Source: Candidatus Bruticola sp. (lineage in GTDB: Bacteria; Vulcanimicrobiota; Xenobia; Xenobiales; Xenobiaceae). Taken from it: DNA of 64,000 nucleotides. The stretch lies in NCBI GenBank assembly GCA_051874735.1, contig JBJEGD010000042.1, positions 22,003 to 86,002 of the forward strand, given 5' to 3'. The notes under the pieces are model-generated. The model had not been told where the DNA came from and ran no database searches. It saw only the letters and a list, made by a program, of their open reading frames with translations. The translations under genes and the position numbers were made by a program. Below, piece after piece: positions 31-18,915 of this stretch (positions within the stretch are counted from its first letter, which is position 1; every line of letters begins with the position of its first letter).

Positions 31-831
31 ATGAATTTTCGCCTAAGACACATATTAACAATCTGTCTGCCTATTTTGGCTGTCGCTGTACTCTTTTGGC
101 TTTTTACCGATGCAGCCAATGCTCAGAATCCATTTCCTCAGCTAAATATGCCGAATATCAGCATTAATGGAGCTAAGGCCAACGAAAAACAAACTTTTTC
201 CACCACTCTGCTGCTGCTGGGAGGATTGAGTCTGCTGTCACTAGCTCCCTATATTTTAGCTATGTGTACAGCTTTTATACGCATAGTTATGACTCTGAGC
301 TTCCTAAGATCGGCTATGGGAACCCAGCAAGTTCCTCCAACTCAGGTTTTGATGGGTTTAGCCCTGTTTCTTACCATGTTTGTTATGGCTCCCGTAGGCG
401 AATCGATTAATAAAGATGCCTTACAGCCTTATCTGGCGGGAAAGATTTCTCAAAGCGCCTTCTTTGCTAAAGCTTACAAGCCCATCCAGTCTTTTATGCT
501 CTATCAAACCAGAGAGAAAGACATTCAACTTTTCTTTGATATCGGTCGCGTCAAAAATATTACTAAACGCGAGGATATACCTTTCTATATTCTGCTGCCT
601 TCGTTCGTGCTGTCAGAAATTAAAACTTCATTTCAAATAGGCTTCCTGCTTTACGTACCTTTCCTAGTCATCGATATGGTAGTAGCCTCAGTACTCATGT
701 CGATGGGTATGTTTATGCTCTCGCCAATGTCCATTTCTCTACCTTTTAAGCTGCTGCTTTTCGTATTGATAGATGGTTGGCATTTAATTATTAAAGGTGT
801 AGTGGAGAGTTTCAATTATCCACGCTCTTAG
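31..831 (+). CDS. fliP: Type III export gate protein FliP/SctR with N-terminal signal peptide
   Basis: Motifs LSLAP..AMCTAFIRI..LSFLRSAMGTQQVPP.QVL.GLALFLT, LLPSFVLSEIK.SFQIGF, DMVVASVLMSMGMFMLSP..ISLPFKLLLFVLIDGW; hydrophobic N-terminus ending AANA-Q. Confidence 0.95.
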   Translation: MNFRLRHILTICLPILAVAVLFWLFTDAANAQNPFPQLNMPNISINGAKANEKQTFSTTLLLLGGLSLLSLAPYILAMCTAFIRIVMTLSFLRSAMGTQQVPPTQVLMGLALFLTMFVMAPVGESINKDALQPYLAGKISQSAFFAKAYKPIQSFMLYQTREKDIQLFFDIGRVKNITKREDIPFYILLPSFVLSEIKTSFQIGFLLYVPFLVIDMVVASVLMSMGMFMLSPMSISLPFKLLLFVLIDGWHLIIKGVVESFNYPRS

Positions 832-880: not shown

Positions 881-1177
881 ATGTTCGTACTGGGGGCAGA
901 AGTTTTCGACGACGGCTTCGTGCTAGCTCTCTGCACAAAGGCTCTTTATCTGGTGCTGGTTCTCTCAGCCCCAATGCTAATGTCCGCCCTGTCTGTAGGT
1001 CTTATGGTCAGTATCGTCCAGGCGACCACTCAGGTTCAGGAGCAGACGCTCTCGTTTGTACCCAAAATTATAGCTACTTTTATGGCTATAGTTTTGTGCG
1101 GAAACTGGATGTTCAATATGCTTTCCAGTTTTACTATATCCACTTTTGCCGATATCGCCCGCTTGGGGCCCAAATAA
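881..1177 (+). CDS. fliQ: Type III export gate protein FliQ/SctS
   Basis: VGLMVSIVQATTQVQEQTLSFVPKI motif; AGGAGG RBS; position between fliP and fliR. Confidence 0.95.
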   Translation: MFVLGAEVFDDGFVLALCTKALYLVLVLSAPMLMSALSVGLMVSIVQATTQVQEQTLSFVPKIIATFMAIVLCGNWMFNMLSSFTISTFADIARLGPK

Positions 1178-1183
1178 AGTAGC

Positions 1184-1969
1184 ATGACTGGAATGATGAG
1201 CGATCCGGCCCTGCAGCTGCTGGGTGTAGGAATGCTTGCCTTCGTAAGAATGGCTCTTATATTTGTGCAGGCGCCGATTTTTGGAAGTAACCACATTCCC
1301 AATACCGTACTGGTGGGGACTGCGGCAGCTTTCACGATGGTGTTGTATCCTACTCTGCCCGTTCCTAACGATATGCCTACCGATCTGTTCCCTTTTTTGG
1401 GAGCTTTGCTCACTCAAGCATGCGTCGGGTTAGTAATAGGTTTCGTCTCGTTTATCGTCATCGCTGCAGCTCAGTTCGGCGGTGAAATGCTCGATATTCA
1501 AATGGGCCTATCTTCGGCAGCTTCCTTCGATCCTGCCAGCCATGGTGCTATCAACCTGCTGCGCAAAGTGCTATTTTACACATCTATGAATCTATACTTG
1601 GTTCTTGGTGGTCACCATCAACTTTTGGCCGCCGTCTACAAGAGCTATCAAGTAGTACCTCTGACCTATTTTCATATGTCAGAAAATTTAGCTATGACTC
1701 TTCTGCGTATGAGCAGCGATCTTCTAGTTATAGGTACGCAGATTGCTGCGCCAGCCTTAGCAGCTTTATTCATAGCCCAGTGCGCTTTGGGTTTATTGGC
1801 CCGCGTGGCTCCTCAAATGAACATTTTCATGTTGAGTTTCCCACTCAACATTGCTATCGGATTGGTACTCCTGCGCCTCTCTTATCCTCTGGTAATGAGA
1901 GTGCTGGGCAATCAATTTGAAATAAACCTCGATATTTTGCTACAATGTATAGGAATGATGAAGCCATAA
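1184..1969 (+). CDS. fliR: Type III export gate protein FliR/SctT
   Basis: Multi-TM protein; G..LDIQMGLS.A..FDP and GLLARVAPQMNIFMLSFPL motifs. Confidence 0.93.
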   Translation: MTGMMSDPALQLLGVGMLAFVRMALIFVQAPIFGSNHIPNTVLVGTAAAFTMVLYPTLPVPNDMPTDLFPFLGALLTQACVGLVIGFVSFIVIAAAQFGGEMLDIQMGLSSAASFDPASHGAINLLRKVLFYTSMNLYLVLGGHHQLLAAVYKSYQVVPLTYFHMSENLAMTLLRMSSDLLVIGTQIAAPALAALFIAQCALGLLARVAPQMNIFMLSFPLNIAIGLVLLRLSYPLVMRVLGNQFEINLDILLQCIGMMKP

Positions 1970-1983
1970 GGAGGTGAAATTAG

Positions 1984-3186
1984 ATGGGTGGTCAGGATAG
2001 CGACAAAACTGAAGAACCAACTGAACATAAGTTACAAGAAGCCCGCAAAAAAGGCCAGGTAATGAAAAGTCAGGAGGTGATATCCACCTGCCTGCTTTTG
2101 GCTACGGCCGGTGCCATGTACGGAGCCGGCGGCGGTATGTTGTCGAGAATACGTGAACTAACCATCTATGTATGGAGCTTAATACCGACCTATAATATGA
2201 ATGCTCGCAGTCTTAACGGGGATATTTTCCACGTTATGATTACCATTTTGTTAGTGTTGGCGCCGCTTTTAGCGGCAGGCTTCATGATGGCCATTGTGGC
2301 CAATATAGCTCAAGTACAGTTCATATTCTCAACTGAAACTCTTAAACCAAGTCTAAACAAGATAAATCCTTTAGAAGGCTTTAAAAAGATATTCAGTGTC
2401 AAATCAGCAGTTGAGCTACTTAAGCAGCTTGCTAAATTAGGTGTTATAGGTTACATATGCTATAAGGTTGTAGGGGAAGTTCTGCCCCAGCTGCAGACAG
2501 CTCCAGCTATTCCTCTTATGGCTACTTTGGAACTCGTTGGTCTAACTGTTAAGAGCCTCGTTATGAAGGTTTTAGTTGGCATGGTGGTGATTGCCGGCCT
2601 CGACTACATCTTCCAGAAGAAGCAGTTTATGAAACAGATGCGCATGAGCATGCAAGACCTGAAAGACGAATACAAAGAGACTGAAGGAAACCCACAAGTA
2701 AAGGGTAAGCTCCGTCAGCTTATGCGCCAAAGCTCTCAAGGCGGTGGAGGCGGAGGTAACATGATGGCTGAAGTTCCTGATGCTTCGGCTGTAGTTACTA
2801 ACCCGACCCATTTGGCAGTAGCTCTCCGCTATAAACAAGGTGAAGATCCTGTGCCTATTGTTGTAGCTAAAGGCGAAAACATGACGGCCGTCCAGATAAA
2901 AATTATGGCTGAAGATCACGATGTGCCTATTGTCGAAAACGTCGAACTAGCTAGAGCCTTGTTTAAGACCTGTGAACTTTCCGGTCCGGTACCTACCGAA
3001 ATGTACAAAGCTGTCGCTGAAGTGCTGGCTTATGTTATTAAACTTAAAAGAAAGCGCGAATTGCTGCGCAGGCGCCGTTTGGCCCGTAATGGCCCTCCAC
3101 GTCGGACAGCTCGTGCCGCTGTAGCCTCACCTTCTATGCCGAAAACTCAATTTACGGCTAGGAGCATGGCTTCAGGAAGACGTTAA
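1984..3186 (+). CDS. flhB: Export switch protein FlhB/SctU
   Basis: DKTEEPTEHKLQEARKKGQV, KINPLEGFKKIFS, KDEYKETEGNP, NPTH autocleavage motif; AAGGAGGTG RBS. Confidence 0.95.
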   Translation: MGGQDSDKTEEPTEHKLQEARKKGQVMKSQEVISTCLLLATAGAMYGAGGGMLSRIRELTIYVWSLIPTYNMNARSLNGDIFHVMITILLVLAPLLAAGFMMAIVANIAQVQFIFSTETLKPSLNKINPLEGFKKIFSVKSAVELLKQLAKLGVIGYICYKVVGEVLPQLQTAPAIPLMATLELVGLTVKSLVMKVLVGMVVIAGLDYIFQKKQFMKQMRMSMQDLKDEYKETEGNPQVKGKLRQLMRQSSQGGGGGGNMMAEVPDASAVVTNPTHLAVALRYKQGEDPVPIVVAKGENMTAVQIKIMAEDHDVPIVENVELARALFKTCELSGPVPTEMYKAVAEVLAYVIKLKRKRELLRRRRLARNGPPRRTARAAVASPSMPKTQFTARSMASGRR

Positions 3187-3333
3187 TCAACATTGACTGC
3201 TTTTCAGTCAGCTTTTTTCCAAGACTCGCACTTTTACCAAACGCGCAGTTCTTCCAGCAGCGCCAGGTTAATGTGTGAGTCTGTTGGTATTTAAATTATA
3301 TTTAATTTTAATATACTGGAGAAGTCGAATAAT

Positions 3334-5469
3334 ATGGGTGCCCAGCCCGGTGCAGAAGTATTAGACAAACTTATGAAATGCTCCGATATCGGCAGTGCTG
3401 TTGCTATTGTCGGTATTGTAGGCATGTTGATTGTTCCTCTCCCGCCAGACATGCTCGATGTGCTTCTGGCCTTCAATTTGGCCTGCGCCATCATTACAGT
3501 ACTCATTTCAATTTACATTGAAGAGCCTCTGCAATTTGCTGTATTCCCTACAGTCTTGCTAGTAGCAACTTTGTTCCGTCTGGCTCTGGACGTCTCAGCT
3601 ACGCGTATGATTCTGCTCCACGGCAATGAAATTGACGTAGTAACCAAGATGCCCACCGGTGCCGGCCACCTAATTCCTACATTCGGAAAGGTGGCTGTAG
3701 GAGGCAACTTAATCGTAGGCTTCATTATGTTTATCATTCTGATTATCATTCAGATTATGGTAATCACCAATGGTGCCGAACGTATAGCTCAGGTAGCGGC
3801 CCGTTTTAACTTAGACGCTATGCCTGGTAAGCAAATGGCTATCGACGCCGACCTCCATGCCGGCAATATCGATGCCGAAACAGCTAGAAAAAAACGCAAA
3901 GACATTGAGCGCGAATCTGACTTCTATGGTTCTATGGACGGTGCCGGCAAATTCGTAAAAGGTGACGCTATGGCTTCTATCGTCATTATGTTGGTCAACG
4001 TCATCGGCGGTATCGGCATAGGCGTACTATACCACGGTATGGACATCGCTCACGCTCTTAACACCTACGCCATTTTATCTATAGGCAACGGACTTATGAC
4101 AACTTTGCCGGCCTTCTTAATGTCCACAGCTATGGGCTTGGTAGTTTCTCGTGCAGCCTCCGAATCTAACCTCGGACGCGACGTTGTCGAGCAGGTTTCC
4201 GGTCAGCCTGGCGCTTTAAAAATGGCTGGCGCCTTCATGCTCACCTTGGCCCTACTCTCCCTTTTAGCTGGTCTTCCTAAATTTATGGCCTTTACTTTGG
4301 CCTGCATCGGCGGCGCTCTCTTCTTCATGGGACATCAATTGGAAAAGAAAAACCAAGAAGTGGCTGCTGCAGTTACCGGAGGCACCACTACGGCCCAGGA
4401 GCAAAAGAAAAAGACGGAACAGAAAAAACCGGAGAGTGTCGTCCAGCTCATGCAGGTCGATCCCATCTCTTTGGAAGTTGGCCGCGGCTTGCTCTCTTTA
4501 GTAGACCCCAATCAAGGGGCCAAACTGCTCGATCGTGTAACCTCAATTCGCCGTCACATTGCTTTAGAGCTGGGTATTGTAGTACCAGGCGTGCGCTTCC
4601 GTGACAATTTGCAACTTAAGCCGAACGCTTATGTTATCAAGATAAAAGAAATAGAAGTCGCTCAGGGTGAAGTTCAAGTTAACCAATTCTTAGCGATAGG
4701 CCCTGAAGAGAAGCTTAAAAACTTACGCGGTACCAAAACTGTTGACCCGACTTACGGTATGCCAGGCGTATGGATTTCCCCAGAACAACGCGGCGATGCC
4801 GAACGTTTAGGATGCATGATCTTTGACCCTGTAAGCGTTATTGCAACTCAGCTGACCGAGGTTGTCAGAACTCATGCTTCTGAAATGCTGGGACGCCAGG
4901 AAGTTCAGGCTCTCATCGACACGGTCAAAAAGACCCATCCAGCAGTTGTCAAAGAAATCTTCCCCGACGCCTTGGGATTGGGCGAAATTCAGAAAGTGCT
5001 GCAGAATTTGGTCAAAGAGCGCGTGTCTGTGCGCGACTTAGTTTCTATTTTAGAAACTATGGGCGACAACGTACATATTACCAAAGATCCTGAAATGCTT
5101 ACAGAATTCTGCCGTGTCAGCCTTTCTCGGGTCATTTGCAAGGACTACTGCAACAATGATGGTACGATCAACGTGATTACGCTCGATCCTAAAATTGAGC
5201 AAATGATTCAAGGCGCCATCCAGCGCAGTGAACTGGGCTCTTTCTTAACTCTCGATCCGAACTTAGGCCAGGAGATTTTGCAGGCTATATCTCAGCAAGC
5301 CAATGCTTTGCAAGAGCGAGGTCTTCAACCGATACTTTTGGTAGCTCCGCAGATTCGCCCAGCTGTACGTAAATTGACAGAGCGATCTTTCCCGAACTTG
5401 GTAGTTCTCTCTTGGAATGAGATAGCTCCTAAAATTAACGTAAACTCCGTGGGTATGGTCTCCTTCTAA
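3334..5469 (+). CDS. flhA: Major export apparatus protein FlhA/SctV
   Basis: FPTVLL.ATLFRLAL, ERIAQVAARFNLDAMPGKQMAIDADL, FYGSMDGAGKFVKGDA, VLQNLVKERVSVRDL motifs. Confidence 0.96.
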   Translation: MGAQPGAEVLDKLMKCSDIGSAVAIVGIVGMLIVPLPPDMLDVLLAFNLACAIITVLISIYIEEPLQFAVFPTVLLVATLFRLALDVSATRMILLHGNEIDVVTKMPTGAGHLIPTFGKVAVGGNLIVGFIMFIILIIIQIMVITNGAERIAQVAARFNLDAMPGKQMAIDADLHAGNIDAETARKKRKDIERESDFYGSMDGAGKFVKGDAMASIVIMLVNVIGGIGIGVLYHGMDIAHALNTYAILSIGNGLMTTLPAFLMSTAMGLVVSRAASESNLGRDVVEQVSGQPGALKMAGAFMLTLALLSLLAGLPKFMAFTLACIGGALFFMGHQLEKKNQEVAAAVTGGTTTAQEQKKKTEQKKPESVVQLMQVDPISLEVGRGLLSLVDPNQGAKLLDRVTSIRRHIALELGIVVPGVRFRDNLQLKPNAYVIKIKEIEVAQGEVQVNQFLAIGPEEKLKNLRGTKTVDPTYGMPGVWISPEQRGDAERLGCMIFDPVSVIATQLTEVVRTHASEMLGRQEVQALIDTVKKTHPAVVKEIFPDALGLGEIQKVLQNLVKERVSVRDLVSILETMGDNVHITKDPEMLTEFCRVSLSRVICKDYCNNDGTINVITLDPKIEQMIQGAIQRSELGSFLTLDPNLGQEILQAISQQANALQERGLQPILLVAPQIRPAVRKLTERSFPNLVVLSWNEIAPKINVNSVGMVSF

Positions 5470-5545
5470 ATTACAACATTTCTCAAGCAGTAAACGTTTA
5501 GCAATTTTGCCGCTCCAAAAGCGAGAACGGATGGTATAAAAGGCT

Positions 5546-5863
5546 ATGGAAATGGAACCTAGAGTAGGTTTAACTCCTGAAGAAATGATTACTAATTTTA
5601 ACCGTATGTATCAAGATTCTTGGGAGCGCAGCCGCGAACAGATAGACTGGCAAGCCATTAAGAGACCTAACGCAGATCTCTCAAAATGGGTTCTGGAAGT
5701 ATTAGAAATAGTGATGGCTGCTTCCAGAGATGCCATGACTTTTACCATAATGGAAAATAATAAGCGTATTGCTGAACAGATGGTGGAACAAGGGCTGCCA
5801 GTTCACATGGAAGAGGTACAAGATGACGGCTCTTCGGAATTAGATTTCGATCGCATGGCTTAA
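5546..5863 (+). CDS. Small acidic helical hypothetical protein, last gene before the export-operon terminator
   Basis: 105-aa ORF co-oriented with flhA and followed directly by a strong hairpin terminator. Confidence 0.75.
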   Translation: MEMEPRVGLTPEEMITNFNRMYQDSWERSREQIDWQAIKRPNADLSKWVLEVLEIVMAASRDAMTFTIMENNKRIAEQMVEQGLPVHMEEVQDDGSSELDFDRMA

Positions 5864-5872
5864 TTCTTGTAC

Positions 5873-5921
5873 AAAAAAAATACGCCTTACCGAATGTTAT
5901 TCGGTAAGGCGTATTTTTTTT
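5873..5921 (+). terminator. Rho-independent terminator
   Basis: AAAAAAAATACGCCTTACCGAAT-GTT-ATTCGGTAAGGCGTATTTTTTTTT: perfect inverted repeat with T-tract. Confidence 0.9.
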
Positions 5922-6060
5922 GTAATAAAGCGATAAATAAACAGCAAAGCTTTAGATTACAAGTTGTCAATACTCTTTTTTTACACTGCAGTCATAAACA
6001 GGCGGAATCAGTTCTCTTGCAGAGCAAGCCCCTGAAATGCTAACAAGCGAGGTAAAAAAT

Positions 6061-6339
6061 ATGAGTATACTTTCTAATGTATTCAGCAGTTTAGGCAACG
6101 CTTTTTTTCAAAATAGCCAGCAGGCCCATATGCTGCAAATGTACACTAACGATATACAAAATGCCCAAACTATTTATGCCTCTATTGAAGCTCAAGCTCA
6201 AAAGAGCCAAATGGAACGCTGGAAGATAGCCAACGATACCCAAACTAAAATATTTGAAATTCAGCAAGACGTCACAGTCAATCGTGCTAAAACACAAGAC
6301 AAAATGTTTAATAAATGGAGCGATTACATTCGCTCTTAA
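6061..6339 (+). CDS. 92-aa helical protein; minimal member of a three-gene paralog family (candidate T3SS filament/needle-like subunit)
   Basis: GAGGT RBS before ATG 6061; C-terminal 63 aa align without gaps to the C-termini of 6404..7213 and 7633..8376. Confidence 0.8.
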   Translation: MSILSNVFSSLGNAFFQNSQQAHMLQMYTNDIQNAQTIYASIEAQAQKSQMERWKIANDTQTKIFEIQQDVTVNRAKTQDKMFNKWSDYIRS

Positions 6340-6403
6340 TTAAGCGGCTTTCTTAAATTAATTTCCTTCCAGACTTATCCTTAAAGAAAGAGGTACATTA
6401 AGT

Positions 6404-7213
6404 ATGGTGATTTCCGAAAGCCGCCTGTCTAATCCAACAGCTACGGCTACAATACATCCTCTCAATTCCTCCCCTATCTCAGACAGTCAAAATCCGTCAA
6501 GCTCATCCCAACCCACCGATACTTTTATAACTCAACAGCCAAGCACATATATCCCTACTATAAACAGATTTCCTTCAACAAGCTCACCATCAGATTCTTT
6601 AAGTACTTCAGAAGACAGTGAACTAACGGATACAAATACAACTATAAGTTCAAACGATTCTGATCCAGAAGCCATCTCATCAGACTCAAACTCTAATACC
6701 TGCACTTCAGAAACTGAAAGGAATTGCTGCCATGAAGAGATCCCCCCCCCAGCCGCCCCCACCTTCATTTTTCAAGAAAATTTTTTCCAGCCTCTATCGT
6801 CAGCTACTCCAGCTGAAGCCAATAGCTCTCAACAAGAAGTTTCATCAATACCTGAAACTGTACAAGCTGCATCTGAAGATACTCAAAACTCTCAAGACCA
6901 GACAAACGCCACTTTGCCAGCAGCCTATTACCCAGAAGCCAAAAAAGCGGATCCAACTCCAGAGCCCCCTCTGAGCCAAGCGGAAGAAAGAGCTCTAGCT
7001 GAAGAAAAAGAGCAGCAAGAGAAACTTCGCGTCCAGGCTATCTACGATCGTATGGAAGCCGAAAAAATCATTGCTGAAAATAAACGCCAGGCGATATGGG
7101 CCGATTTGCAAACTGAACTACAGCGCATCTGGAGAGAAGTCATGATTCGGCGCAAAAAATCAGAAGACGATTATATGAAAAACTGGCAAAAAGTATTCCT
7201 TAATGTAGGTTAA
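6404..7213 (+). CDS. Ser/Thr/Pro-rich disordered protein with the shared C-terminal helical domain
   Basis: GAGGT RBS; low-complexity N-terminal ~200 aa; C-terminal IYDRMEA...IWADLQ...I...R...D.....W. Confidence 0.8.
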   Translation: MVISESRLSNPTATATIHPLNSSPISDSQNPSSSSQPTDTFITQQPSTYIPTINRFPSTSSPSDSLSTSEDSELTDTNTTISSNDSDPEAISSDSNSNTCTSETERNCCHEEIPPPAAPTFIFQENFFQPLSSATPAEANSSQQEVSSIPETVQAASEDTQNSQDQTNATLPAAYYPEAKKADPTPEPPLSQAEERALAEEKEQQEKLRVQAIYDRMEAEKIIAENKRQAIWADLQTELQRIWREVMIRRKKSEDDYMKNWQKVFLNVG

Positions 7214-7632
7214 TGTCTTATATTTTGCGTCCTATAAGCCGGCTGTATATCAATTGTAAATTTATAAAAAAGCCGAACTACAGCCGGCCTAAAAAGTTGA
7301 CATAAAAATATTTAATCGACGAACATTTAATACGATCTAGCTAATTTCCTATTGAGACAGCAATAGAAATTTATCAATATCTATACAGCGATATAAAAAA
7401 GACTCGCACTATATGTATAAAGTTAAGCATACAATAGACGAACAAACATGATTTTTTTCGACAAAATCATGATCGCCAACAGCTATAAAATTCCAACAAT
7501 GGGGCTAAATTTCACAAATAAGCAACAAGACAACCTTTTTTTTAACAGGCTTAACAATTATAATGGTAGGGAAAATAAATGCATTATAGCCAGAGAGTTC
7601 TGGCCTTTAGCCTTGCAAGGAGGCCTGTATAA

Positions 7633-8376
7633 ATGGTTGCCCCTATCGGAATCAATACTAATGCCTATTCGCAGACCAATGCTGTCCGCAATATGCAGCA
7701 AGTTGGCGGTCAGAGCCAAGTAACCCGCCAATCCGACGTAGCTCCATCTCAGAGCGAAAATCAGCATACTGCTGCAGCTGACAATGTTCAGCTTTCCGAA
7801 GGTGTTTCGTTTGCTCAAGATGCCCAGGAAAATGCCACTCATATAGGTGCTGCTCAGAACCAATTTGAAAGTGAAATCGGTGACGCTTTTGAAAGTGCCG
7901 CAGAATCTGAAGTTGGTGCCTCTCAAGCTGGTGCGGCCGGTACTTCCGAAGAAGCAGCCGCTCCCCGTGAGCCTCAAACTGATGAGTATGGTTTCATTTT
8001 GATGGATGAACAGGGCAATCCTATTGGCGGAAGCGTTCCTCCAGAGGATGGCGGCTCCGGTGCTCCTCCTATTGACGGTGGTGGCAATGCTGGTCAAGCT
8101 GGTGAAGTACCCCCTGAGGATGGTGGTGCTGGGGAAACTCAAGAAAGCGAAGCTTCCAGAGCTTCTCGTCTTCAGTCGATGGAGCAAGATCGTGAAGAGG
8201 CCATGAAGATCTACACTCAAATGATGGCAGATCGTCAAAAGTGGTTTGCTGAACTGATGAAGATCCTTGCCGATACTCAGGCGTCAATTTTCGACATTAT
8301 CCAACAGACCATGACCAACCGTGCTATGGCTTTCGATAGAGCTATGGCTGGATGGTCCAGAGCCTTCAACGGATAA
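7633..8376 (+). CDS. Gly/Ala/Glu-rich disordered protein with the shared C-terminal helical domain
   Basis: AAGGAGG RBS; C-terminal IYTQMMA.RQK...KILADTQ..IFDIIQ...NRA..D.....WS. Confidence 0.82.
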   Translation: MVAPIGINTNAYSQTNAVRNMQQVGGQSQVTRQSDVAPSQSENQHTAAADNVQLSEGVSFAQDAQENATHIGAAQNQFESEIGDAFESAAESEVGASQAGAAGTSEEAAAPREPQTDEYGFILMDEQGNPIGGSVPPEDGGSGAPPIDGGGNAGQAGEVPPEDGGAGETQESEASRASRLQSMEQDREEAMKIYTQMMADRQKWFAELMKILADTQASIFDIIQQTMTNRAMAFDRAMAGWSRAFNG

Positions 8377-8535
8377 ATAAACACTTCCTAAGTATTTCAA
8401 ATAACAACTAGAGGTGCGGAGCTTGCCGTTTTTCGCTCGTAAATAGTGATGCGGCAGGCTTTTTGTCTTAAATGCAAGATAAATAGCGAAGTTTTTTTCC
8501 AATACTTTTTGCAGAACATGTTTTCTTATAGTCTT

Positions 8536-8576
8536 AAAAATAGGGCCGCTCCCTTAAGGGAGCGGCCCTATTTTTT
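8536..8576. terminator. Bidirectional Rho-independent terminator between convergent genes
   Basis: AAAAATAGGGCCGCTCCCTTAAGGGAGCGGCCCTATTTTTT perfect palindrome. Confidence 0.9.
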
Positions 8577-8604
8577 GACTATATCCTTTTATAGAACAAC
8601 AAAC

Positions 8605-9528
8605 CTATTGCTGAACACAACGCCAATCGGCGGTAAAATCGTTATGAGCGCCTGCTTTAGCTTTTTCTATCAAAAGATCGGCCATTTTATTGACAGCCCA
8701 AGGGAAGTGAGCATCACGCAGAGAGCGATAATCGAAGTCGCAAACATAATTAGTAATATCAATGGCGTAGAGAACATGATCTTTGATTGCAAACTCCAAA
8801 GCATTCATATCATAGCCAATCGCCCTATTAAATTTAATAGTATATTCCTCTGCCTTAGCTAAATCGCTGGGATCGAGCACACCACGATCCTGAACATACT
8901 CACCATTGCCCATAGGACGAGGTATATAGCGAATAGCACGAGCATTATCACGACCGATACTTAAGCAGCGAATATAATCTTCCCAAGCGATAAACTCCTG
9001 CAAAGTCATGGTCAAACAGCCAGATTCATTGTAAGCCTGGATAGCATCTTCTTTACTGTAAATTTTATACACGTTCTTCCAGCCGCCGCCAAAAGCCGGC
9101 TTCATTATACAAGGCAGACCAACTTCAGCCAAACGGGCATCCCAATCTATAGGCCACATATTGCGCAGAGAACCAGACGTAATATCAGCGGTATAAGACA
9201 AATTGGGCAAGACCACGGTTTTAGGGACCGGAATACCCAAACGCTTAGCTAAAGAATACCCAAAAAACTTATCATCAACGTTCATCCAGAAGGGATTATT
9301 GACCACATAAGTTCCCTGCATTGAGGCTTGTTTTAGATACACTTGGTAATATGGAACTTCATGGGAGATGCGATCTAAAATAGCGCTGTAAGGGCATTCT
9401 TCTCCGCAGCTCGTGCCACCTAAATGAATGTATTCAGCATGAACACCACAGTCACGGCGATTAATTTCGGCAATCACGCCATCCGGGAAACTATCTTCAC
9501 GACCACGCAGAACACCAACCTTCAACAT
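8605..9528 (-). CDS. ATP-grasp (RimK/glutathione synthetase-like) ligase
   Basis: DRISH, NNPFW..DDKFF, IPVPKTVVLP, MKPAFGGGWKNVYK, LQEFI, D.N..EFAI...YAID; GAGGAGG RBS favours ATG 9528. Confidence 0.85.
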   Translation of the reverse strand: MLKVGVLRGREDSFPDGVIAEINRRDCGVHAEYIHLGGTSCGEECPYSAILDRISHEVPYYQVYLKQASMQGTYVVNNPFWMNVDDKFFGYSLAKRLGIPVPKTVVLPNLSYTADITSGSLRNMWPIDWDARLAEVGLPCIMKPAFGGGWKNVYKIYSKEDAIQAYNESGCLTMTLQEFIAWEDYIRCLSIGRDNARAIRYIPRPMGNGEYVQDRGVLDPSDLAKAEEYTIKFNRAIGYDMNALEFAIKDHVLYAIDITNYVCDFDYRSLRDAHFPWAVNKMADLLIEKAKAGAHNDFTADWRCVQQ

Positions 9529-9607
9529 ATTAAACAACCCTCCTCAGCATAATAAATAGCTCCAAACAACCACTCTGAAAAAAATGGCGCGAACTGAAAA
9601 ATAGGGA

Positions 9608-10591
9608 CTAATTAAGCTTACTCACATAGCTCAACGCCCAATTGCGCACACCCAAGTCTTTATCATGTAAAGCCTTGCGCAAGAACTCATAATCCTCTGT
9701 TTCCGCAGCTAAAGCATAAGCACGACGACGCACCGCAGCATCCCCATAATTTATACAGAGCTCATAAATACCTAAACTATTGACTCCCTGATTCTGCAAA
9801 TCTAAACGTTCTTGAGGCTCCATGGAAACCATTAAGTCGAGCATACCATGCAGAATAGCTCTAGTATCAGGCCAACAAGTGAAATTCTTTACAATATGAC
9901 GGATAACTTTGGAAGCATCCTCGCCAGTACCGACTAAACAAGTAATCGCTTTGCGAGCTAAAAATGTGGGAGCAAGAAGGGGCCTTTCCTGGGTGGGTTT
10001 TAAAAAACCTACGGAAATATCTTTCTCTACATCGAGTCCCATAGCCCACTGGCAGATAGTGCGCCTATTGCTGTTATCAAAACACCGCATATCTAAAGAA
10101 CGTTCTACAATAGCAGAGCGTCCTTCTTCACTTAGACAATTACTCATCAACAAACAAATCAGCAGACAAACTCTGTCATTTTTACTAACTTCTGCCTTAC
10201 TCAGAATAGCTTCACAACAGTAGAGACTGTCATCTTTGTCCAGCGGTTCCAAAGAAGCCTCTCTGGTGAGATTCATATTTGTATCCGGATCAGCAAGTTC
10301 ACAGGCATAACTAATAATTTTATCAACAGTAATAGTTTCACTAGCATTGCTGCAAAGCCAAGCCAGTGCCAAAAGTCCGCCGGGAGAGACCTGCACAAGT
10401 TGACTAAAAGCACGCTGACGTATATTTTGGTCTAAGCGAGCTCTAAATAATTCTCTAGCCCAAGCATCGCGACAATCTTGCTCAGTTAAAGCCACTTGCT
10501 CATTTAGTCCACGCCTAGCACAGCGACGCAAACGCTGACGGGCACGCCTCTTTATATTCTGTAAGGCTGCGCTACTGAAAACCTCGTCCAA
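9608..10591 (-). CDS. Hypothetical helical protein with C-terminal HEAT-like repeats
   Basis: 327-aa ORF; DAAVRRRA and ALHDKDLGVRNWAL resemble HEAT repeats; GGGAGG RBS. Confidence 0.6.
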   Translation of the reverse strand: MDEVFSSAALQNIKRRARQRLRRCARRGLNEQVALTEQDCRDAWARELFRARLDQNIRQRAFSQLVQVSPGGLLALAWLCSNASETITVDKIISYACELADPDTNMNLTREASLEPLDKDDSLYCCEAILSKAEVSKNDRVCLLICLLMSNCLSEEGRSAIVERSLDMRCFDNSNRRTICQWAMGLDVEKDISVGFLKPTQERPLLAPTFLARKAITCLVGTGEDASKVIRHIVKNFTCWPDTRAILHGMLDLMVSMEPQERLDLQNQGVNSLGIYELCINYGDAAVRRRAYALAAETEDYEFLRKALHDKDLGVRNWALSYVSKLN

Positions 10592-10836
10592 AAGAAAATC
10601 CTCCCAATAAGAGCCTGGGACATCGCTCTTCCCCTACTCCATTACCTTACTTATATATCCTGATCACTTTAGCAAAATAGGGAAAAAAACCTGCTCAGCC
10701 TCAGTGAGAGAAGAAGAAAAAGGCGAATACGCCCTCATGTAAGCAATAAGAACGCTCCGCCTTCCATATACAGAAACATAGAAAGGCGGAGTTTATGAAA
10801 CTTACTGTTCCATAAATTCCGCCCTCAATTAACCAC

Positions 10837-14672: not shown

Positions 14673-17600
14673 TTAGAGTTTAGCAGCTAGATCGTTATTG
14701 GGGAGCTCAAACATCTCATGAGCCATGCTACTGTGCACAGGCTCTTGATCTTCCATTGAGAGCATATCAATCTCACGCCCCTCAGAATTCAAAATTTTGA
14801 CATCTAAAGCCAAACTCTGCAATTCTTTGATCAGCACCTTAAATGACTCAGGGACACCAGGTTCGAGGACATTTTCACCTTTAACAATGGCCTCATAAGT
14901 TTTGACTCTGCCTAAAACATCGTCTGACTTTACGGTGAGCAACTCTTGAAGCGTATAAGCAGCACCATAAGCCTCAAGAGCCCAAACTTCCATTTCTCCA
15001 AAGCGCTGACCACCGAACTGAGCTTTACCACCTAAAGGCTGCTGAGTAATTAAGCTGTAAGGTCCAGTAGAGCGTGCGTGGATCTTGTCATCGACCAAGT
15101 GGGCCAGCTTGAGCATATAAATTTGACCAACAGTCACGCGACCATCATAGGGCTCACCAGTGCGTCCATCGTAGAGAACGGTTTTGCCGTCGACTACAAC
15201 ATGTCTGCGGTAAAGTTCTATATAAGTGGCGATCTCGCGGATCTGTTCTAGGCTATAGTGCTTGCGGTGGCCGATTAAAACTTCTCCCAAGCGATCTTCC
15301 AAGCTGCGCTCGCGCAAGACTTGATTAATCTCGTTAATATCAACACCGTAGCCAACTAACTCTTTGCTGATAGCTGAAGCCAGCTGATTTGCAGGCGTTT
15401 CATCAACAATTTTCTTGAGCTCTTGGGTCGTATAAATGAGCTTAGTCTTGTTTTTAATAAACTCTTGCAAGCGCGAAATTAAGCTGGGCTCATCGAGAAC
15501 ATAAACCAACTCTTCAGTATTGAGATAAACTCCCTTACGCTGCAAATCCGCCTGTAAATTAGCGGTATTCATAACGTAACGCAATTCCTGCTCAGAAGCA
15601 GAGTCGAAAACGGGAACTTCAACACGGAAGCGAGGCTGGCCAGGCTCTGAAAGCATAGCCATAGCTAATCCTAAATGAGTTTCCAAAATTTGGCCGATGT
15701 TCATACGGGAAGGCACACCCAAAGGATTAAGCACAATCTGAACAGGGGTGCCGTCGGGCAGATAAGGCATATCTTCAATAGGCATAACCCTGGAAACTAC
15801 ACCCTTATTTCCGTGACGGCCGGCCATTTTGTCGCCCTGCATAATTTTACGCTTCTGAGCCACGTAAACACGCACCAGCTTATTAACGCCAGGCTTCAAC
15901 TCATTCTTTTTGCCGCTGCCCTCTTCGTCTTCACGGTTGAAAACTTTGACGTCGATGACTTTGCCCTTTTGACCGTGAGGCACCTTCAAAGATGTATCGC
16001 GGACGTCGCGGGCCTTCTCACCAAAGATAGCTCTAAGCAGACGCTCCTCAGCTGTAAGCTCCGTCTCACCCTTAGGAGTGACTTTACCCACCAAAATATC
16101 TTCAGTATTAACCTCAGCGCCAATGCGTACAATACCGTCTTCATCGAGATCTTTGAGGGCATCCTCACCCACGCTGGGAATATCACGAGTAATCTCTTCC
16201 GCTCCCAACTTGGTGTCTCGAGCTTCGCACTCATGCTCTTCAATGTGAATAGAAGTGAATACGTCGTCACGAGCAACCTCTTCGCTAAGCAGGATAGCGT
16301 CTTCGTAGTTATAGCCTTCCCAAGGCATAAACGCTACCAGAACGTTACGTCCTAAAGCCAGCTCACCGTTGACAGAAGACGCACCGTCAGCCAAAACGCT
16401 GCGCACGTCAACACGCTGTCCTAAATTGACTGCAGGGCGCTGGTTAATACAAGTTCCCGCATTGGATCGTTTGAACTTGCGCAGAGGATAAACGTGTTCC
16501 TGTCCCTGTTCATCAGTGACTGTAACGGAAGTAGCGCAAACAGCACTCACATAGCCTTTGTGTTTGGAAACTACCAAAGCTCCGGAGTCTGTAGCCGCTC
16601 TATACTCCATACCAGTACCGACAATAGGTGCCTGAGGAGAAAGCAGGGGAACGGCCTGACGCTGCATGTTAGCTCCCATGAGAGCTCGGTTGGCGTCGTC
16701 ATGCTCCAAGAAGGGAATCAGAGCTGTAGCTACAGAGACAATCTGCTTAGGAGTTACATCCATGAAGTCAACTTCTTCACGAGAAACTACTGTCGTCTCT
16801 TTTTTACCGCGTTTGCGGCGCACAACTACGCGATCGTCGATAATATTGCTGCGCTCATCAAGGCGCGTATTGGCCTGGCAAATAACAAATTCATCTTCAA
16901 CATCGGCATCTTGGTACTGAATGTTATCTGTAACGTGAACTCGCACAGAAGGTTTTATATCATGAGCGACAAGATCGTCGTAATCTTTGCGTTCAAGTAC
17001 CTCACCGCTGTGGAAAACAGTTCCTGTCACGGGATGAACGACATCTCGAGAAAGAATAAGATCGACCTTGCGATACGGAGCTTCAATAAATCCGAAGGAA
17101 TTTACCCGACCATACGTAGCTAAAGAACCGATCAAACCGATATTGGGGCCTTCAGGAGTCTCAATAGGACAGATACGACCATAGTGAGAGTCATGGACAT
17201 CGCGGACTTCGAAACCGGCACGCTCACGGGAAAGACCGCCGGGGCCCAAAGCAGACAGACGGCGCTTGTGTGTGAGTTCAGCCAGCATATTAGTCTGGTC
17301 CATAAACTGGGACAACTGAGAAGAGCCAAAGAACTCTTTAATAGCGGCCGTTACTGGACGAGTGTTAATGAGTAGCTGCGGAGTAATAGTTTCTATATCC
17401 TGCACAGACATACGCTCGCGGACTACGCGCTCCAAACGAAGCAGTCCAACTCGGAACTGATTCTGAAGCAATTCACCCACGCCGCGGATACGACGGTTGC
17501 CTAAGTGGTCTATGTCGTCGTGTTTAACTAAAACGTCAAAGCTGCCTTCACCACAAGCTTTTAATTTGAAGACTCCATTTTCAAGGTAAAGGGGCAGTCC

Positions 17601-18668
17601 TTCATTTAAGCTAATGGAAGCTGATTTATCATCTTTCTTACTACCCTCTTCTTGACGGCGATAGGCATCGGCCTTCATAAGAGCAAGAACGTAGCGAACA
17701 ACAGCAACCACATCGTCTTTTCTCAGAATGGACGGATATTCTAAATGTTGACCGCACTCGCAGCACTCTTCTTTATCGGGCATATTGTAAGCACCGCAGT
17801 TGGTACAAACTATTTTTTGTCCGAGCTTGCGAGCTAAACGATAACTGCCGACCCTAGCTAAATCGTAGCGTTTGCGCTCAAAGAATAAATTATTTAAGAG
17901 CGTGCGGGCACTCTCTTGAGAGGGCTGCTCGCCTGGGCGCTGTTTTTTATAAATTTCTAAGAGAGCGTCTTCAACACTTTCTACAGTATCTTTTTCAAGA
18001 GTTTTTTCCAGCAGAGGCTCATAATTGAAGAGAGCCCTGATATCGTCATTGCTTTCATACTCTAAAGCGCGCAGCAGTACGGTGGCAGGCAGCTTGCGGG
18101 CCTTATCGATACGCACATAAATAACGCCCGAGGTATCAGTTTCAAACTCCATCCAGGCACCGCGGTTGGGAATGACTACAGCAGACCAGGTAGAACGGCC
18201 GGTATCAGGATCTTCATGGTGTTGATAATAAATGCCTGGAGAGCGCACCAACTGGCTGACAATAACTCGCTCAGCACCATTAATAATAAAAGTTCCGCGA
18301 TCAGTCATAGCAGGGAAATCGCCAATAAAGATCTCCTGCTCTCTAGCTTCGCGCACTTCACCGTTCTCTTTAGTAGTCAAACGAACCTTGACTTTTAAAG
18401 GATAAGCGTAAGTGGCATCTTTATCACGGCATTTCTCAACCGACTGGGGCGGTTCGTCTAATTTATGCTCAAGGAATTCCAGCACTAAGTTGCCGGTAAA
18501 ATCCTCAATTGGAGATATATCTTTAAAGGTATCGTCCATACCTTTTTTTAGAAAGCGGTCGTAAGACGAGCACTGGAGTTCAATTAAATAAGGAAGCTCC
18601 ATTACCGGCGGAATTTTTTGAAAAGATATACGCCCTGTGGCCTCGTTCTTGTGTCGAAGAAACGACAT
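14673..18668 (-). CDS. rpoB: DNA-directed RNA polymerase subunit beta
   Basis: [50 protein letters not shown]; GAGGAGG RBS favours ATG 18668. Confidence 0.99.
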
Positions 18669-18915
18669 TCGAGAAGATCCTCCTCTGCGCAATTAGCTGA
18701 CATATTCCCCACGCCCGGCAAAGGCGGAGGATTCTTAGATATTAACGAGCTCAGCCGCAAAAACAAATCGGACAGGCTCTCTCTAAATAGATGATGCCCC
18801 ATCTATGCTAACTTTCAGCACCAGCGCTGTGCGATTAAGTCTGCAATTAGGCAGAGCCAGAGACAGCGCCTTGGTTGAAGCATGAAAACAGCAGAAACCG
18901 CTGCTAAGTCCAATC

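What the first reader, a model, noticed from the sequence alone, without database searches (positions are those of the whole stretch)
6061..8376. Three tandem genes next to a T3SS export gate share an unnamed, ungapped ~63-aa C-terminal domain: candidate new filament/needle or substrate family
Seen: the C-termini align without gaps. P1 (6148-6336) NDIQNAQTIYASIEAQAQKSQMERWKIANDTQTKIFEIQQDVTVNRAKTQDKMFNKWSDYIRS; P3 (8185-8373) QDREEAMKIYTQMMADRQKWFAELMKILADTQASIFDIIQQTMTNRAMAFDRAMAGWSRAFNG; P2 (7016-7210) QEKLRVQAIYDRMEAEKIIAENKRQAIWADLQTELQRIWREVMIRRKKSEDDYMKNWQKVFLNVG. Hand count: P1/P3 23/63 identical, P1/P2 16/63, and 10 columns invariant in all three (IY, A, I, D, Q, I, R, D, W). P1 is essentially the bare domain (92 aa); P2 and P3 carry ~185-200 aa of disordered N-terminus. 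None has a Sec signal. Known: T3SS axial subunits (SctF needle, SctI rod, HrpA pilin, flagellar D0 helices) are small helical proteins exported without a signal peptide that polymerise through conserved C-terminal helices. Inference: P1 is a major polymer subunit and P2/P3 are minor, decorated or cargo subunits that co-assemble through the same helix, i.e. a non-canonical appendage built by a flagellar-type export gate.
Basis: partly seen in the sequence, partly recalled or inferred. Interest (0 to 1): 0.88.

Follow-up and report, generated by a model that had tools for sequence, protein, structure and literature searches.

The report
Unnamed helical family beside flagellar gate
Three neighbouring genes next to a flagellum-type protein-export machine share an unnamed helical end-domain found only in one little-known bacterial phylum, and they are the best candidates for what this machine, which has no flagellin and no motor, exports or builds.

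Summary
P1, P2 and P3 share an ungapped C-terminal domain of about 63 aa (23/63, 16/63 and 16/63 identities, 10 invariant columns; 0 of 100,000 shuffles reach these counts).

The domain ("FAM") has no Pfam, NCBIfam or PDB relative. Every locus found lies in Eremiobacterota (Xenobia/UBP9 and allies): 52 of 301 genomes sampled.

In at least 32 of those 52 genomes a copy lies within 6.5 kb downstream of flhA. It usually follows a conserved small helical gene, orf105.

That flhA belongs to an old paralogous flagellar-type system ("B"). In this genome system B has rods, FliE/F/G/H/I/J/K/M/N/O/P/Q/R and FlhA/B. No flagellin, FliD, FliS, FlgD, FlgH/I, FlgM or MotB was found.

P1 is one of four short copies under extreme purifying selection (19 synonymous and 0 non-synonymous differences over 65 codons between two copies).

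About 8% of relatives carry Sec-type signal peptides, so the domain acts outside the cytoplasm in at least some proteins.

Export and polymerisation are not shown. There is no detectable homology to flagellin, FlgM, MxiH or MxiI. Only weak leads point to Hrp pilins.

Best reading (about 0.4): these are dedicated late substrates of system B, with the short form as the abundant self-assembling subunit.

The parts
31..831 (+). fliP (export gate)
   Evidence: Pfam FliP E=7e-78
881..1177 (+). fliQ-like, 98-aa membrane ORF between fliP and fliR
   Evidence: Position and hydrophobic sequence. Not scanned against Pfam by me.
1184..1969 (+). fliR-like, 261-aa membrane ORF
   Evidence: Position between fliQ and flhB. 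Not scanned by me.
1984..3186 (+). flhB
   Evidence: Pfam Bac_export_2 E=3e-118
3334..5469 (+). flhA of the paralogous 'system B' clade
   Evidence: Pfam FHIPEP E=1e-251. Sits in a clade with SH-aLRT 100 with the other FAM-linked FlhAs. 40-44% identical to flagellar FlhA against 34-36% to SctV.
5546..5863 (+). orf105: conserved acidic helical-hairpin protein of unknown family; candidate partner or chaperone of the FAM proteins
   Evidence: Lies directly upstream of a short FAM gene in 11 of 21 loci examined. AF2 pLDDT 83.7, helices 11-32 and 45-81. No Pfam hit and no PDB fold match.
5876..5918 (+). terminator-like hairpin (20-bp stem plus T run) that separates the flhA-orf105 unit from P1
   Evidence: sequence
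6061..6339 (+). P1: 92-aa short FAM protein (essentially the bare domain)
   Evidence: FAM domain at 6148-6336.
6404..7213 (+). P2: 269 aa, S/T/P-rich N-part plus a divergent FAM domain (7016-7210)
   Evidence: P2-like orthologues in G003 and G070.
7633..8376 (+). P3: 247 aa, invariant N-terminus MVAPIGINTN.., A/G/Q/E-rich middle, FAM domain (8185-8373)

Best explanation
P1, P2 and P3 belong to one module of an old, paralogous, flagellum-derived type III export system ('system B') of Eremiobacterota. In this genome system B keeps the basal body, rods, C-ring proteins, ATPase complex, FliK ruler and export gate, but has no flagellin, cap, hook cap, L/P rings, FlgM or stator.

The FAM-domain proteins are its dedicated late substrates. 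They have no signal peptide, pass through the FlhA/FlhB gate and act outside the cytoplasm. The short form (P1 plus three further copies on another contig) is the abundant subunit. It self-associates through its long conserved helix into a homopolymer or coiled-coil fibre. P2 and P3, and longer relatives elsewhere, dock onto or co-assemble with it through the same C-terminal domain. They carry variable N-terminal parts. orf105 is a candidate cytoplasmic partner.

Shown: homology of the three proteins, phylum restriction, conserved linkage to flhA, missing canonical late components, strong purifying selection, and extracytoplasmic location of some relatives.

Inferred: export by this gate, polymerisation, and the roles of P2, P3 and orf105.
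For: - Linkage: in 32 of the 52 FAM-positive genomes, the listed coordinates put a FAM copy within 6.5 kb of a FHIPEP gene on the same contig. This spans families f1, f2, f3, f4, f6, f7, f14, f18 and f19. Both lists were truncated, so it is a lower bound.
- Gene order flhA-(aminotransferase)-orf105-short FAM-long FAM recurs. A very divergent short-plus-two-long triad sits at the same place in genus g8.
- The FAM-linked FlhAs form one clade (SH-aLRT 100), apart from the second FlhA of the same genomes.
- Not found in the own genome (92% complete): Flagellin_N/C, FliD_C, FliS, FlgD, FlgI, FlgH, and no hit with a phylum flagellin profile. The only MotA/ExbB homologue is ExbB with two ExbD. MotB_plug 0 of 10 in the genus and 2 of 19 in the family. 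FlgM 0 of 19 in the family. Flagellin 0 of 19 in the family.
- Rods, FliE, FliH, FliJ, FliK, an FlgE/F/G-like protein and FliO are present.
- No N-terminal hydrophobic stretch in P1-P3 or in 0 of 54 short members.
- Four short copies. Copy 1 against copy 2: 19 synonymous and 0 non-synonymous differences in 65 codons. Copy 1 against copy 3: dN/dS 0.008.
- Near-consensus sigma-70-type promoters (CTTTAC-N17-TGnGATAAT) and GGAGG sites in front of the short genes in many lineages.
- The domain sits at the extreme C-terminus in 141 of 150 representative relatives, and about 9 of 150 have Sec- or lipoprotein-like signals.
- ESM Atlas: the nearest named clusters are HrpA_pilin (0.90), HrpE-like (0.89) and a cluster with T3SS_needle_F on 13% of members (0.82). 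Recognition is low, so this is a lead only.
- The paralogue P0014 hits Pfam HrpA_pilin at E=4e-4, 21.5 bits, below the cut-off of 25.
Against: - There is no direct evidence of export or polymerisation.
- AF2 of P1 gives a single helix 3-91 with pTM 0.37 and no hairpin. Foldseek finds nothing.
- No profile similarity to phylum flagellin (probability 0.07%), MxiH (0.27%) or MxiI (0.10%).
- Only 1 of 38 members touches HrpA_pilin, below threshold, in an A/Q-rich stretch that may be compositional.
- Promoters look sigma-70-like, not sigma-28-like, so a place in a flagellar hierarchy is not evident.
- No L/P ring genes were found, and neither of the two secretin genes lies on the contigs that carry the system-B genes, in an organism that has BamA. 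How a fibre would cross the outer membrane is unexplained.
- The three extra short copies sit far from any T3SS gene, next to BamB-like and BamA genes.
- G004 has a B-clade FlhA and an orf105 homologue but no FAM hit. The six g8 genomes have only a very divergent candidate.
- 11 of 52 FAM-positive genomes also have flagellin, together with a second FlhA.
- Relatives with Sec signals or with enzyme or spike domains show that the domain is not tied to one export route.
Confidence: 0.4

Rival explanations
1. The proteins are exported through system B but do not polymerise. FAM is a C-terminal recognition module (binding a chaperone such as orf105, or the gate) that marks a set of secreted proteins or effectors. 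The bare-domain proteins act as competitors, plugs or escorts.
For: The N-terminal parts in front of a constant C-terminal domain vary, with lengths of 57-608 aa. One relative carries Trypsin_2+TIR_2+TPR and another Phage_base_V+Gp5_trimer_C. The orf105-FAM gene pair is conserved. In flagellar systems chaperones bind C-terminal helices of late substrates (recalled knowledge).
Against: 8 of the 10 long relatives scanned have no enzymatic domain. The bare domain is the commonest and most constrained form and is multi-copy behind strong promoters, which fits a bulk product better than a signal. Only one orf105 serves six FAM genes in this genome.
Confidence: 0.2
2. FAM is a general coiled-coil oligomerisation or anchoring module of the cell envelope or cytoplasm that is not exported by the T3SS. 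Its position next to flhA reflects co-regulation or history only.
For: AF2 predicts one long helix. Some relatives have Sec or lipoprotein signals, a multi-TM protein or a trimeric gp5-like spike in front of the domain. The three extra copies lie beside BamB-like and BamA genes. FAM was not found in G004, which has a B-clade FlhA.
Against: Linkage within 6.5 kb of flhA holds in at least 32 of 52 genomes across about 9 families. The signal-less majority (0 of 54 short members with a hydrophobic N-terminus) would have no route to the compartment where the signal-bearing relatives act. FAM was found in 0 of 229 genomes of families f15 and f20.
Confidence: 0.2
3. The proteins are secretion-coupled regulators. 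P3-like long forms (and perhaps the short ones) replace FlgM as anti-sigma factors for the FliA-like sigma factor encoded beside flgF/flgG, and are removed by export.
For: The family f1 genomes have a group-3 sigma factor next to flgF/flgG/rod-binding genes but FlgM in 0 of 19. By eye, P3-like N-termini (M..PIG.N.N.., then an (E/D)xVxLS-like motif about 50-60 aa in) recall the layout of phylum FlgM proteins.
Against: hhalign of the P3 family against phylum FlgM gives probability 0.08%, and FAM against FlgM 1.0%. No long form hits Pfam FlgM at E<=1. Four near-identical, highly constrained short copies behind strong sigma-70-type promoters are unlike any anti-sigma factor.
Confidence: 0.1
4. The similarity is chance, low complexity or a non-coding artefact.
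For: Q/A/T-rich helical sequences can align by composition.
Against: 0 of 100,000 shuffles reach the observed identities. There are 158 database relatives of P1 and 553 representative clusters. Between paralogues there are 19 synonymous against 0 non-synonymous changes.
Confidence: 0.01

Closest known systems
Injectisome needle (SctF/MxiH), inner rod (SctI/MxiI) and tip proteins
   Same: Small helical proteins of about 80-100 aa without Sec signal, encoded beside a T3SS gate. In that system, larger minor components are said to dock through a related C-terminal helix (recalled knowledge). Here a FliK/SctP-type ruler is present in the system.
   Different: No sequence or profile similarity (hhalign 0.27% and 0.10%). 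No Pro-containing turn or predicted hairpin. The host machine is flagellar in gene content (FlgB/C/F/G, FliE/G/M), and neither secretin gene lies on the contigs that carry the system-B genes. FAM is multi-copy and far more constrained.
Hrp pilins HrpA (PF09589) and HrpE-like (PF28047)
   Same: Nearest named clusters by language-model features (0.90 and 0.89). One paralogue scores 21.5 bits on HrpA_pilin. Both are small, helical, Cys-free, T3SS-exported pilus subunits.
   Different: The score is below Pfam's cut-off and only 1 of 38 members hits. Hrp pilins are fast-evolving (recalled), whereas FAM is hyper-conserved. The export machines are of different types.
Flagellar late substrates (flagellin, FlgM, FlgK/L, FliD)
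   Same: Signal-less proteins encoded near flagellar genes and exported after a FliK/FlhB switch. Flagellins are often in tandem multi-copy arrays. The long forms have a conserved N-terminus, a variable middle and a conserved C-terminal helix.
   Different: No Pfam or profile similarity to flagellin or FlgM. At about 78 aa the short form is far below any flagellin I know of (recalled). No cap, junction or FliS was found.
Flagellar T3SS kept without flagellin: Lysobacter enzymogenes OH11 and Buchnera aphidicola
   Same: Flagellar export and basal-body genes are kept in organisms without flagellin and are proposed to export other proteins (abstract of PMC7688988 read; start of the abstract of PMC8109811 seen in the listing).
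   Different: From what I read, those look like remnants of an ordinary flagellar gene set in a species or a symbiont (my reading of those abstracts). Here it is a separate paralogous clade conserved across a phylum, co-existing with a canonical flagellum in some genomes. It also has its own conserved candidate substrates.

Membership tests
T3SS needle SctF (Pfam T3SS_needle_F) / inner rod SctI | Sequence or profile similarity to the family | tested here: not met
   hhalign of the FAM profile against MxiH gives probability 0.27% and against MxiI 0.10%. PF09392 is not among the 25 of 72 families shown for the 38 members at E<=10. It appears only on 13% of one Atlas cluster at score 0.82.
T3SS needle SctF | Helix-turn-helix hairpin of about 80 aa | tested here: not met
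   The AF2 monomer is one helix from 3 to 91 (pLDDT 77.5, pTM 0.37). P1 has 0 Pro. A monomer model cannot exclude a hairpin in an assembly.
HrpA pilin (PF09589) | Score above Pfam's gathering cut-off | tested here: not met
   Best 21.5 bits against a cut-off of 25, E=4e-4, in 1 of 38 members. Atlas feature score 0.90 with 176-183 shared features, but low recognition.
Flagellin | Flagellin_N / Flagellin_C domains | tested here: not met
   No Pfam hit on P1-P3. hhalign against phylum flagellins gives probability 0.07%.
FlgM anti-sigma-28 factor | FlgM domain (PF04316) or profile similarity | tested here: not met
   No hit on P1-P3 or on 7 long forms at E<=1. hhalign 0.08% and 1.0%.
Substrate of a flagellar-type T3SS (functional class) | No Sec signal, and gene linked to the export apparatus | tested here: met
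Substrate of a flagellar-type T3SS (functional class) | Export that depends on FlhA/FliI | not testable with these tools
   Needs secretion assays or exoproteomics.
Substrate of a flagellar-type T3SS (functional class) | Dedicated cytoplasmic chaperone | tested here: inconclusive
   The orf105 gene is a conserved neighbour. It has no fold match to any PDB chain at E<=0.001 and no Pfam hit.
Flagellar-type (not injectisome-type) apparatus | Rod proteins FlgB/C/F/G, FliE, FliK, FliO, and FlhA closer to FlhA than to SctV | tested here: met
   FliF, FliG, FliI, FliM and FliN were named by position and sequence only and were not scanned.
Canonical motile flagellum | Flagellin, FliD cap, FliS, FlgD, L/P rings, MotAB stator | tested here: not met
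   None found in the 92.4%-complete genome. Absence from an incomplete MAG is not proof.

The most novel reading that the evidence does not exclude
Eremiobacterota carry a second, independent conversion of the flagellum into a non-rotating secretion or appendage machine. Its fibre is built from a new subunit of about 78 aa (FAM) that is unrelated in sequence to flagellin, needle or Hrp pilin. Longer FAM-tailed proteins (disordered, protease-TIR, spike-like) are displayed on the fibre or delivered through it.
Probability: 0.3. Interest if true: 0.9.

Novelty: new variant of a known kind. Interest (0 to 1): 0.72.

Why it matters
By the usual account (recalled), the injectisome arose from the flagellum, and I know of no other well-documented conversion of that kind. 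A phylum-wide flagellar paralogue without stator or flagellin, but with its own hyper-conserved, multi-copy, signal-less small helical proteins, would be a second natural experiment in turning a flagellum into something else.

It would also name a family of at least 553 sequence clusters, and would explain why many Xenobia/UBP9 genomes from guts, sludge and oceans keep 'flagellar' genes without flagellin.

Annotation pipelines would probably call these organisms 'flagellated' from the gene set, although no flagellin or stator genes were found in them.

Tried and rejected
- Complex prediction of P1 (alignment A1) with orf105 (A4): no answer, score 0.00. This is neither for nor against binding.
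- The look-up of sequencing runs for window 3300-10600, kind rna: no RNA holder listed.
- Foldseek of the orf105 model against PDB: 0 matches at E<=0.001. The best were PRORP chains at E about 1, and no FliS, FliT or FlgN chain appeared among the rows shown, up to rank 50.
- Foldseek of the single-helix P1 model: 0 matches.
- PDB sequence search with the FAM profile: only two myosin-chimera coiled coils at E 0.34-0.63.
- ESM Atlas for orf105: nothing above 0.77.
- FlgM idea: rejected by hhalign.
- Flagellin D0 idea: rejected.
- Sigma-28 promoter idea: the upstream regions show a sigma-70-like -35/-10 pair instead. The simple scanner found nothing convincing upstream of P1-P3 in the window itself.
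- Idea that FAM is more conserved than FlhA: over the whole length it is not (48-84% against 70-89% identity). Only the C-terminal ~40 aa of the main subfamily are near-invariant.
- The search for homologous proteins for orf105 found only 2 relatives because of the word index, so I built the alignment from loci.
- The careful tree search did not finish, so the quick IQ-TREE tree is reported. It has two long-branch warnings on the non-B side.
- Literature searches: 'Eremiobacterota'+'flagell', 'Xenobia'+'Eremiobacter', 'UBP9'+'flagell', 'Bruticola', 'Vulcanimicrobiota'+'flagell'. The listings of these five searches, and the passages I read, showed no description of this family or of a flagellin-less system in this phylum.
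- PMC9758169 (passages read) reports no flagella and no flagellin gene in Vulcanimicrobium alpinus.
- PMC8397712 is not held.

The 20 loci were picked by me. 15 were chosen because the lists showed FAM near flhA, and 5 were chosen as B-like flhA without a listed FAM nearby. Their synteny counts are therefore illustrative. The count over all 52 positive genomes is the 32 of 52.

The phylum tallies (and presumably 30) include unpublished genomes G177, G212, G230, G232, G245, G247, G263 and G275. All are f15 or f20 and FAM-negative. No locus or sequence used here comes from them.
Full report
[quoted passage not shown] Next come a 105-aa ORF (5546-5863) and a strong terminator-like hairpin (5876-5918). 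Then follow P1 (6061-6339, 92 aa), P2 (6404-7213, 269 aa) and P3 (7633-8376, 247 aa).

P1/P3 is 23/63, P1/P2 16/63 and P2/P3 16/63, with ten columns invariant in all three. None of 100,000 fixed-register shuffles reaches any of these values. BLASTP gives ungapped alignments with E=3e-8 (P1/P3) and 3e-5 (P1/P2); P2/P3 is weak (0.08). None of the three has a hydrophobic N-terminal stretch. None hits Pfam or NCBIfam at curated thresholds.

**The family.**
- P1 has 158 database relatives of 55-175 aa. Most are about 78 aa, with a near-invariant core around ..RWKILQDTQTKIFEIQQDVTVN.AKTQDKMF.KW.EYIR..
- Where the sources give a phylum-level name, it is often Candidatus Bruticola, Xenobium or Eremiobacterota; other MAG labels also occur.
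- A scan of GTDB species genomes gave 79 loci, in MAGs titled Eremiobacteraeota, Vulcanimicrobiota, Xenobia or UBP9, or otherwise labelled. Several of the latter have the contig lengths of genomes that the phylum search returned.
- In a sample of 301 genomes of the phylum, 52 have the family. That is all 19 of the window's family f1, and none of 207 (f15) or 22 (f20).
- A broader profile that includes P2- and P3-type domains (A3) finds 553 representative clusters at E<=1e-3 and 273 at E<=1e-10 among 1.84 billion proteins.
- In the best 150 of these, the domain sits at the extreme C-terminus in 141. Lengths run from 57 to 608 aa.
- No solved structure is related by sequence.
- I call the domain FAM. 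It is unnamed in the libraries I could search.

**This genome.**
- There are exactly six FAM genes: P1, P2, P3 and three short tandem copies on contig C26 (114705-116067, minus strand).
- Copies 1 and 2 differ by 19 synonymous and 0 non-synonymous changes over the last 65 codons. Copies 1 and 3 differ by 25 and 3, giving dN/dS 0.008. These are therefore old duplicates held identical by selection, not by recent conversion.
- Short FAM genes in many lineages sit behind CTTTAC-N17-(TG)nGATAAT promoter-like sites and GGAGG ribosome sites. This fits a highly expressed product.

**Linkage to the export gate.** I read the coordinates listed by the phylum searches for FAM and FHIPEP. In 32 of the 52 FAM-positive genomes, a FAM copy lies within 6.5 kb of a FHIPEP gene on the same contig. 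These genomes fall in families f1, f2, f3, f4, f6, f7, f14, f18 and f19. Both lists were truncated and many contigs are short, so this is a lower bound.

I also fetched 20 loci downstream of such flhA genes. I chose them myself, so they are not an unbiased sample. With the window they make 21 loci:
- FAM genes occur in 16 of the 21, plus L034, where my ORF filter had hidden two copies that one search found.
- A homologue of the 105-aa ORF lies directly upstream of the short FAM gene in 11.
- A class-III aminotransferase lies between flhA and that ORF in 9.
- Long forms with a C-terminal FAM domain follow in many.
- In genus g8, which the profiles score as negative, the same position holds a very divergent 81-aa FAM-like gene. 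It is followed by 199-aa and 280-aa proteins with similar N-termini and helical, W-containing C-termini. The short-plus-two-long triad of the window is therefore old.
- G004 has a B-clade FlhA and an orf105 homologue but no FAM nearby.

**The machine.** Upstream on the same contig lie:
- flgB, flgC and fliE;
- fliF, fliG and fliI (named by position and sequence only);
- fliH and fliJ;
- an SLT transglycosylase;
- fliK;
- a 272-aa FlgE/F/G-like protein;
- fliM and two fliN-like genes (by position);
- fliO.

C26 carries a second FliK-like gene, a FlhB-C-like gene, flgF, flgG, a rod-binding protein and a group-3 sigma factor.

Not found in the 92.4%-complete genome:
- Flagellin_N and Flagellin_C, FliD_C, FliS, FlgD, FlgI, FlgH.
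- Any hit with a profile of the phylum's own flagellins.

Further points:
- The only MotA/ExbB homologue is an ExbB followed by two ExbD.
- MotB_plug is found in 0 of 10 genomes of the genus and 2 of 19 of the family. Both positives are MAGs with 3-7% contamination.
- Flagellin is found in 0 of 19 genomes of the family and FlgM in 0 of 19.
- The organism has BamA and two secretins elsewhere.
- FlhA is 40-44% identical to flagellar FlhAs and 34-36% to SctV proteins.

In a quick ML tree of 34 FlhAs of the phylum, the FAM-linked ones form one clade (SH-aLRT 100, stem 1.49). It is separate from the second FlhA of the same genomes (G002, G004, G007, G014, G026, G060, G108). The 11 FAM-positive genomes that do have flagellin (G007, G014, G020, G026, G040, G052, G058, G060, G066, G102, G108) have at least two FHIPEP loci. 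In G014, G020 and G060 one of these lies near the flagellin gene.

So system B is an old paralogous, flagellar-type system. Where it stands alone, it has no known late substrates and no stator.

**What the FAM proteins look like.**
- AlphaFold2 with 54 sequences gives P1 as one helix from 3 to 91 (pLDDT 77.5, pTM 0.37). Foldseek finds nothing.
- The family is Q/A/T/K-rich, with about 0.1% each of Cys, Pro and His.
- Profile comparisons with phylum flagellins, phylum FlgM, MxiH and MxiI are all negative (probability at most 1%).
- Two weak leads point the same way. The ESM Atlas places P1 nearest to clusters of HrpA pilin (0.90, 176-183 of 256 features), HrpE-like (0.89) and a Myxococcota cluster with T3SS_needle_F on 13% of members (0.82), but recognition is low at 1590.
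- The own paralogue P0014 scores 21.5 bits (E=4e-4) on Pfam HrpA_pilin, below the cut-off of 25. It is the only one of 38 members to do so. Shared composition could explain both leads.

**Relatives with other front ends.** Of ten long representatives, eight have no Pfam domain. One has Trypsin_2+TIR_2+TPR before the FAM domain. One N-truncated protein has Phage_base_V+Gp5_trimer_C. Twelve of the 150 representatives were flagged for an N-terminal hydrophobic stretch, and about nine of these look like Sec or lipoprotein signals. P0278 has a clear signal and the domain near its N-terminus. The domain therefore works outside the cytoplasm in at least some proteins. The signal-less majority then needs another way out, and the neighbouring gate is the obvious candidate.

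**orf105.** AF2 gives a confident helical hairpin (pLDDT 83.7). It has no fold match, no Pfam hit and no Atlas lead. Its role as a partner or chaperone rests on gene order alone.

**Verdict.** His interpretation is partly supported. The link to a flagellar-type gate is real, old and phylum-wide. The system has an empty slot where flagellin should be. The short form has the marks of an abundant, tightly constrained product.

Export and polymerisation remain inferences, there is no homology to any known axial protein, and the Sec-signal and enzyme-fused relatives keep a docking-module reading open.

My confidences:
- about 0.8 that FAM belongs functionally to system B;
- about 0.55 that it is exported by it;
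- about 0.4 for the full reading, with the short form as a self-assembling major subunit and P2 and P3 as co-assembling minor ones.

Noticed in passing
L032, L037, L039, L040, L041, L050 (strict repeat); looser variants in L031, L034, L049; upstream of short FAM genes: A direct repeat GTTAACA-N4-5-GTTAACA lies just upstream of the -35 of the FAM promoters in several lineages; L031, L034 and L049 show only a single or looser copy. It is not seen in the window's own genus. It looks like a binding site for an unknown regulator.
   Followed up: no
L034, L035, L039-L043, L049, L050: A class-III aminotransferase gene of about 450 aa is conserved between flhA-B and orf105 in 9 loci. It is absent at that place in the window. 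This is an odd companion for a T3SS gate.
   Followed up: partly
G000:C26:114705-121430 (locus L029): The three extra short FAM copies lie next to a BamB-like (PQQ_2) gene and the BamA (Omp85) gene, that is, beside outer-membrane biogenesis genes and far from any T3SS gene.
   Followed up: partly
proteins P0163 and P0142: P0163 is a FAM-tailed protein with Trypsin_2+TIR_2+TPR. P0142 is a FAM-tailed gp5/VgrG-like spike fragment.
   Followed up: no
window 14673-18692 (-): The rpoB product (1339 aa) contains a CxxC...CxxC stretch (..[21 protein letters not shown]..) that looks like an inserted zinc ribbon.
   Followed up: no
window 8605-10591 (-): A RimK-like ATP-grasp gene (NCBIfam rimK_fam 5e-8, below cut-off) and a 327-aa HEAT-like protein lie between P3 and rpoC.
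   Followed up: no
phylum genomes of families f15 and f20: Many genomes have a single FHIPEP gene scoring only about 1e-190 to 1e-215 and no flagellin at the curated cut-off, for example most of genus g32 and all of f20. This may be a third T3SS type in the phylum. These tallies include unpublished genomes.
   Followed up: no
G000:C42:16971-17921 and G000:C26:82624-84033: There are two FliK-like ruler proteins (316 and 469 aa; Flg_hook 4e-14 and 3e-6) in a genome with one export gate.
   Followed up: no
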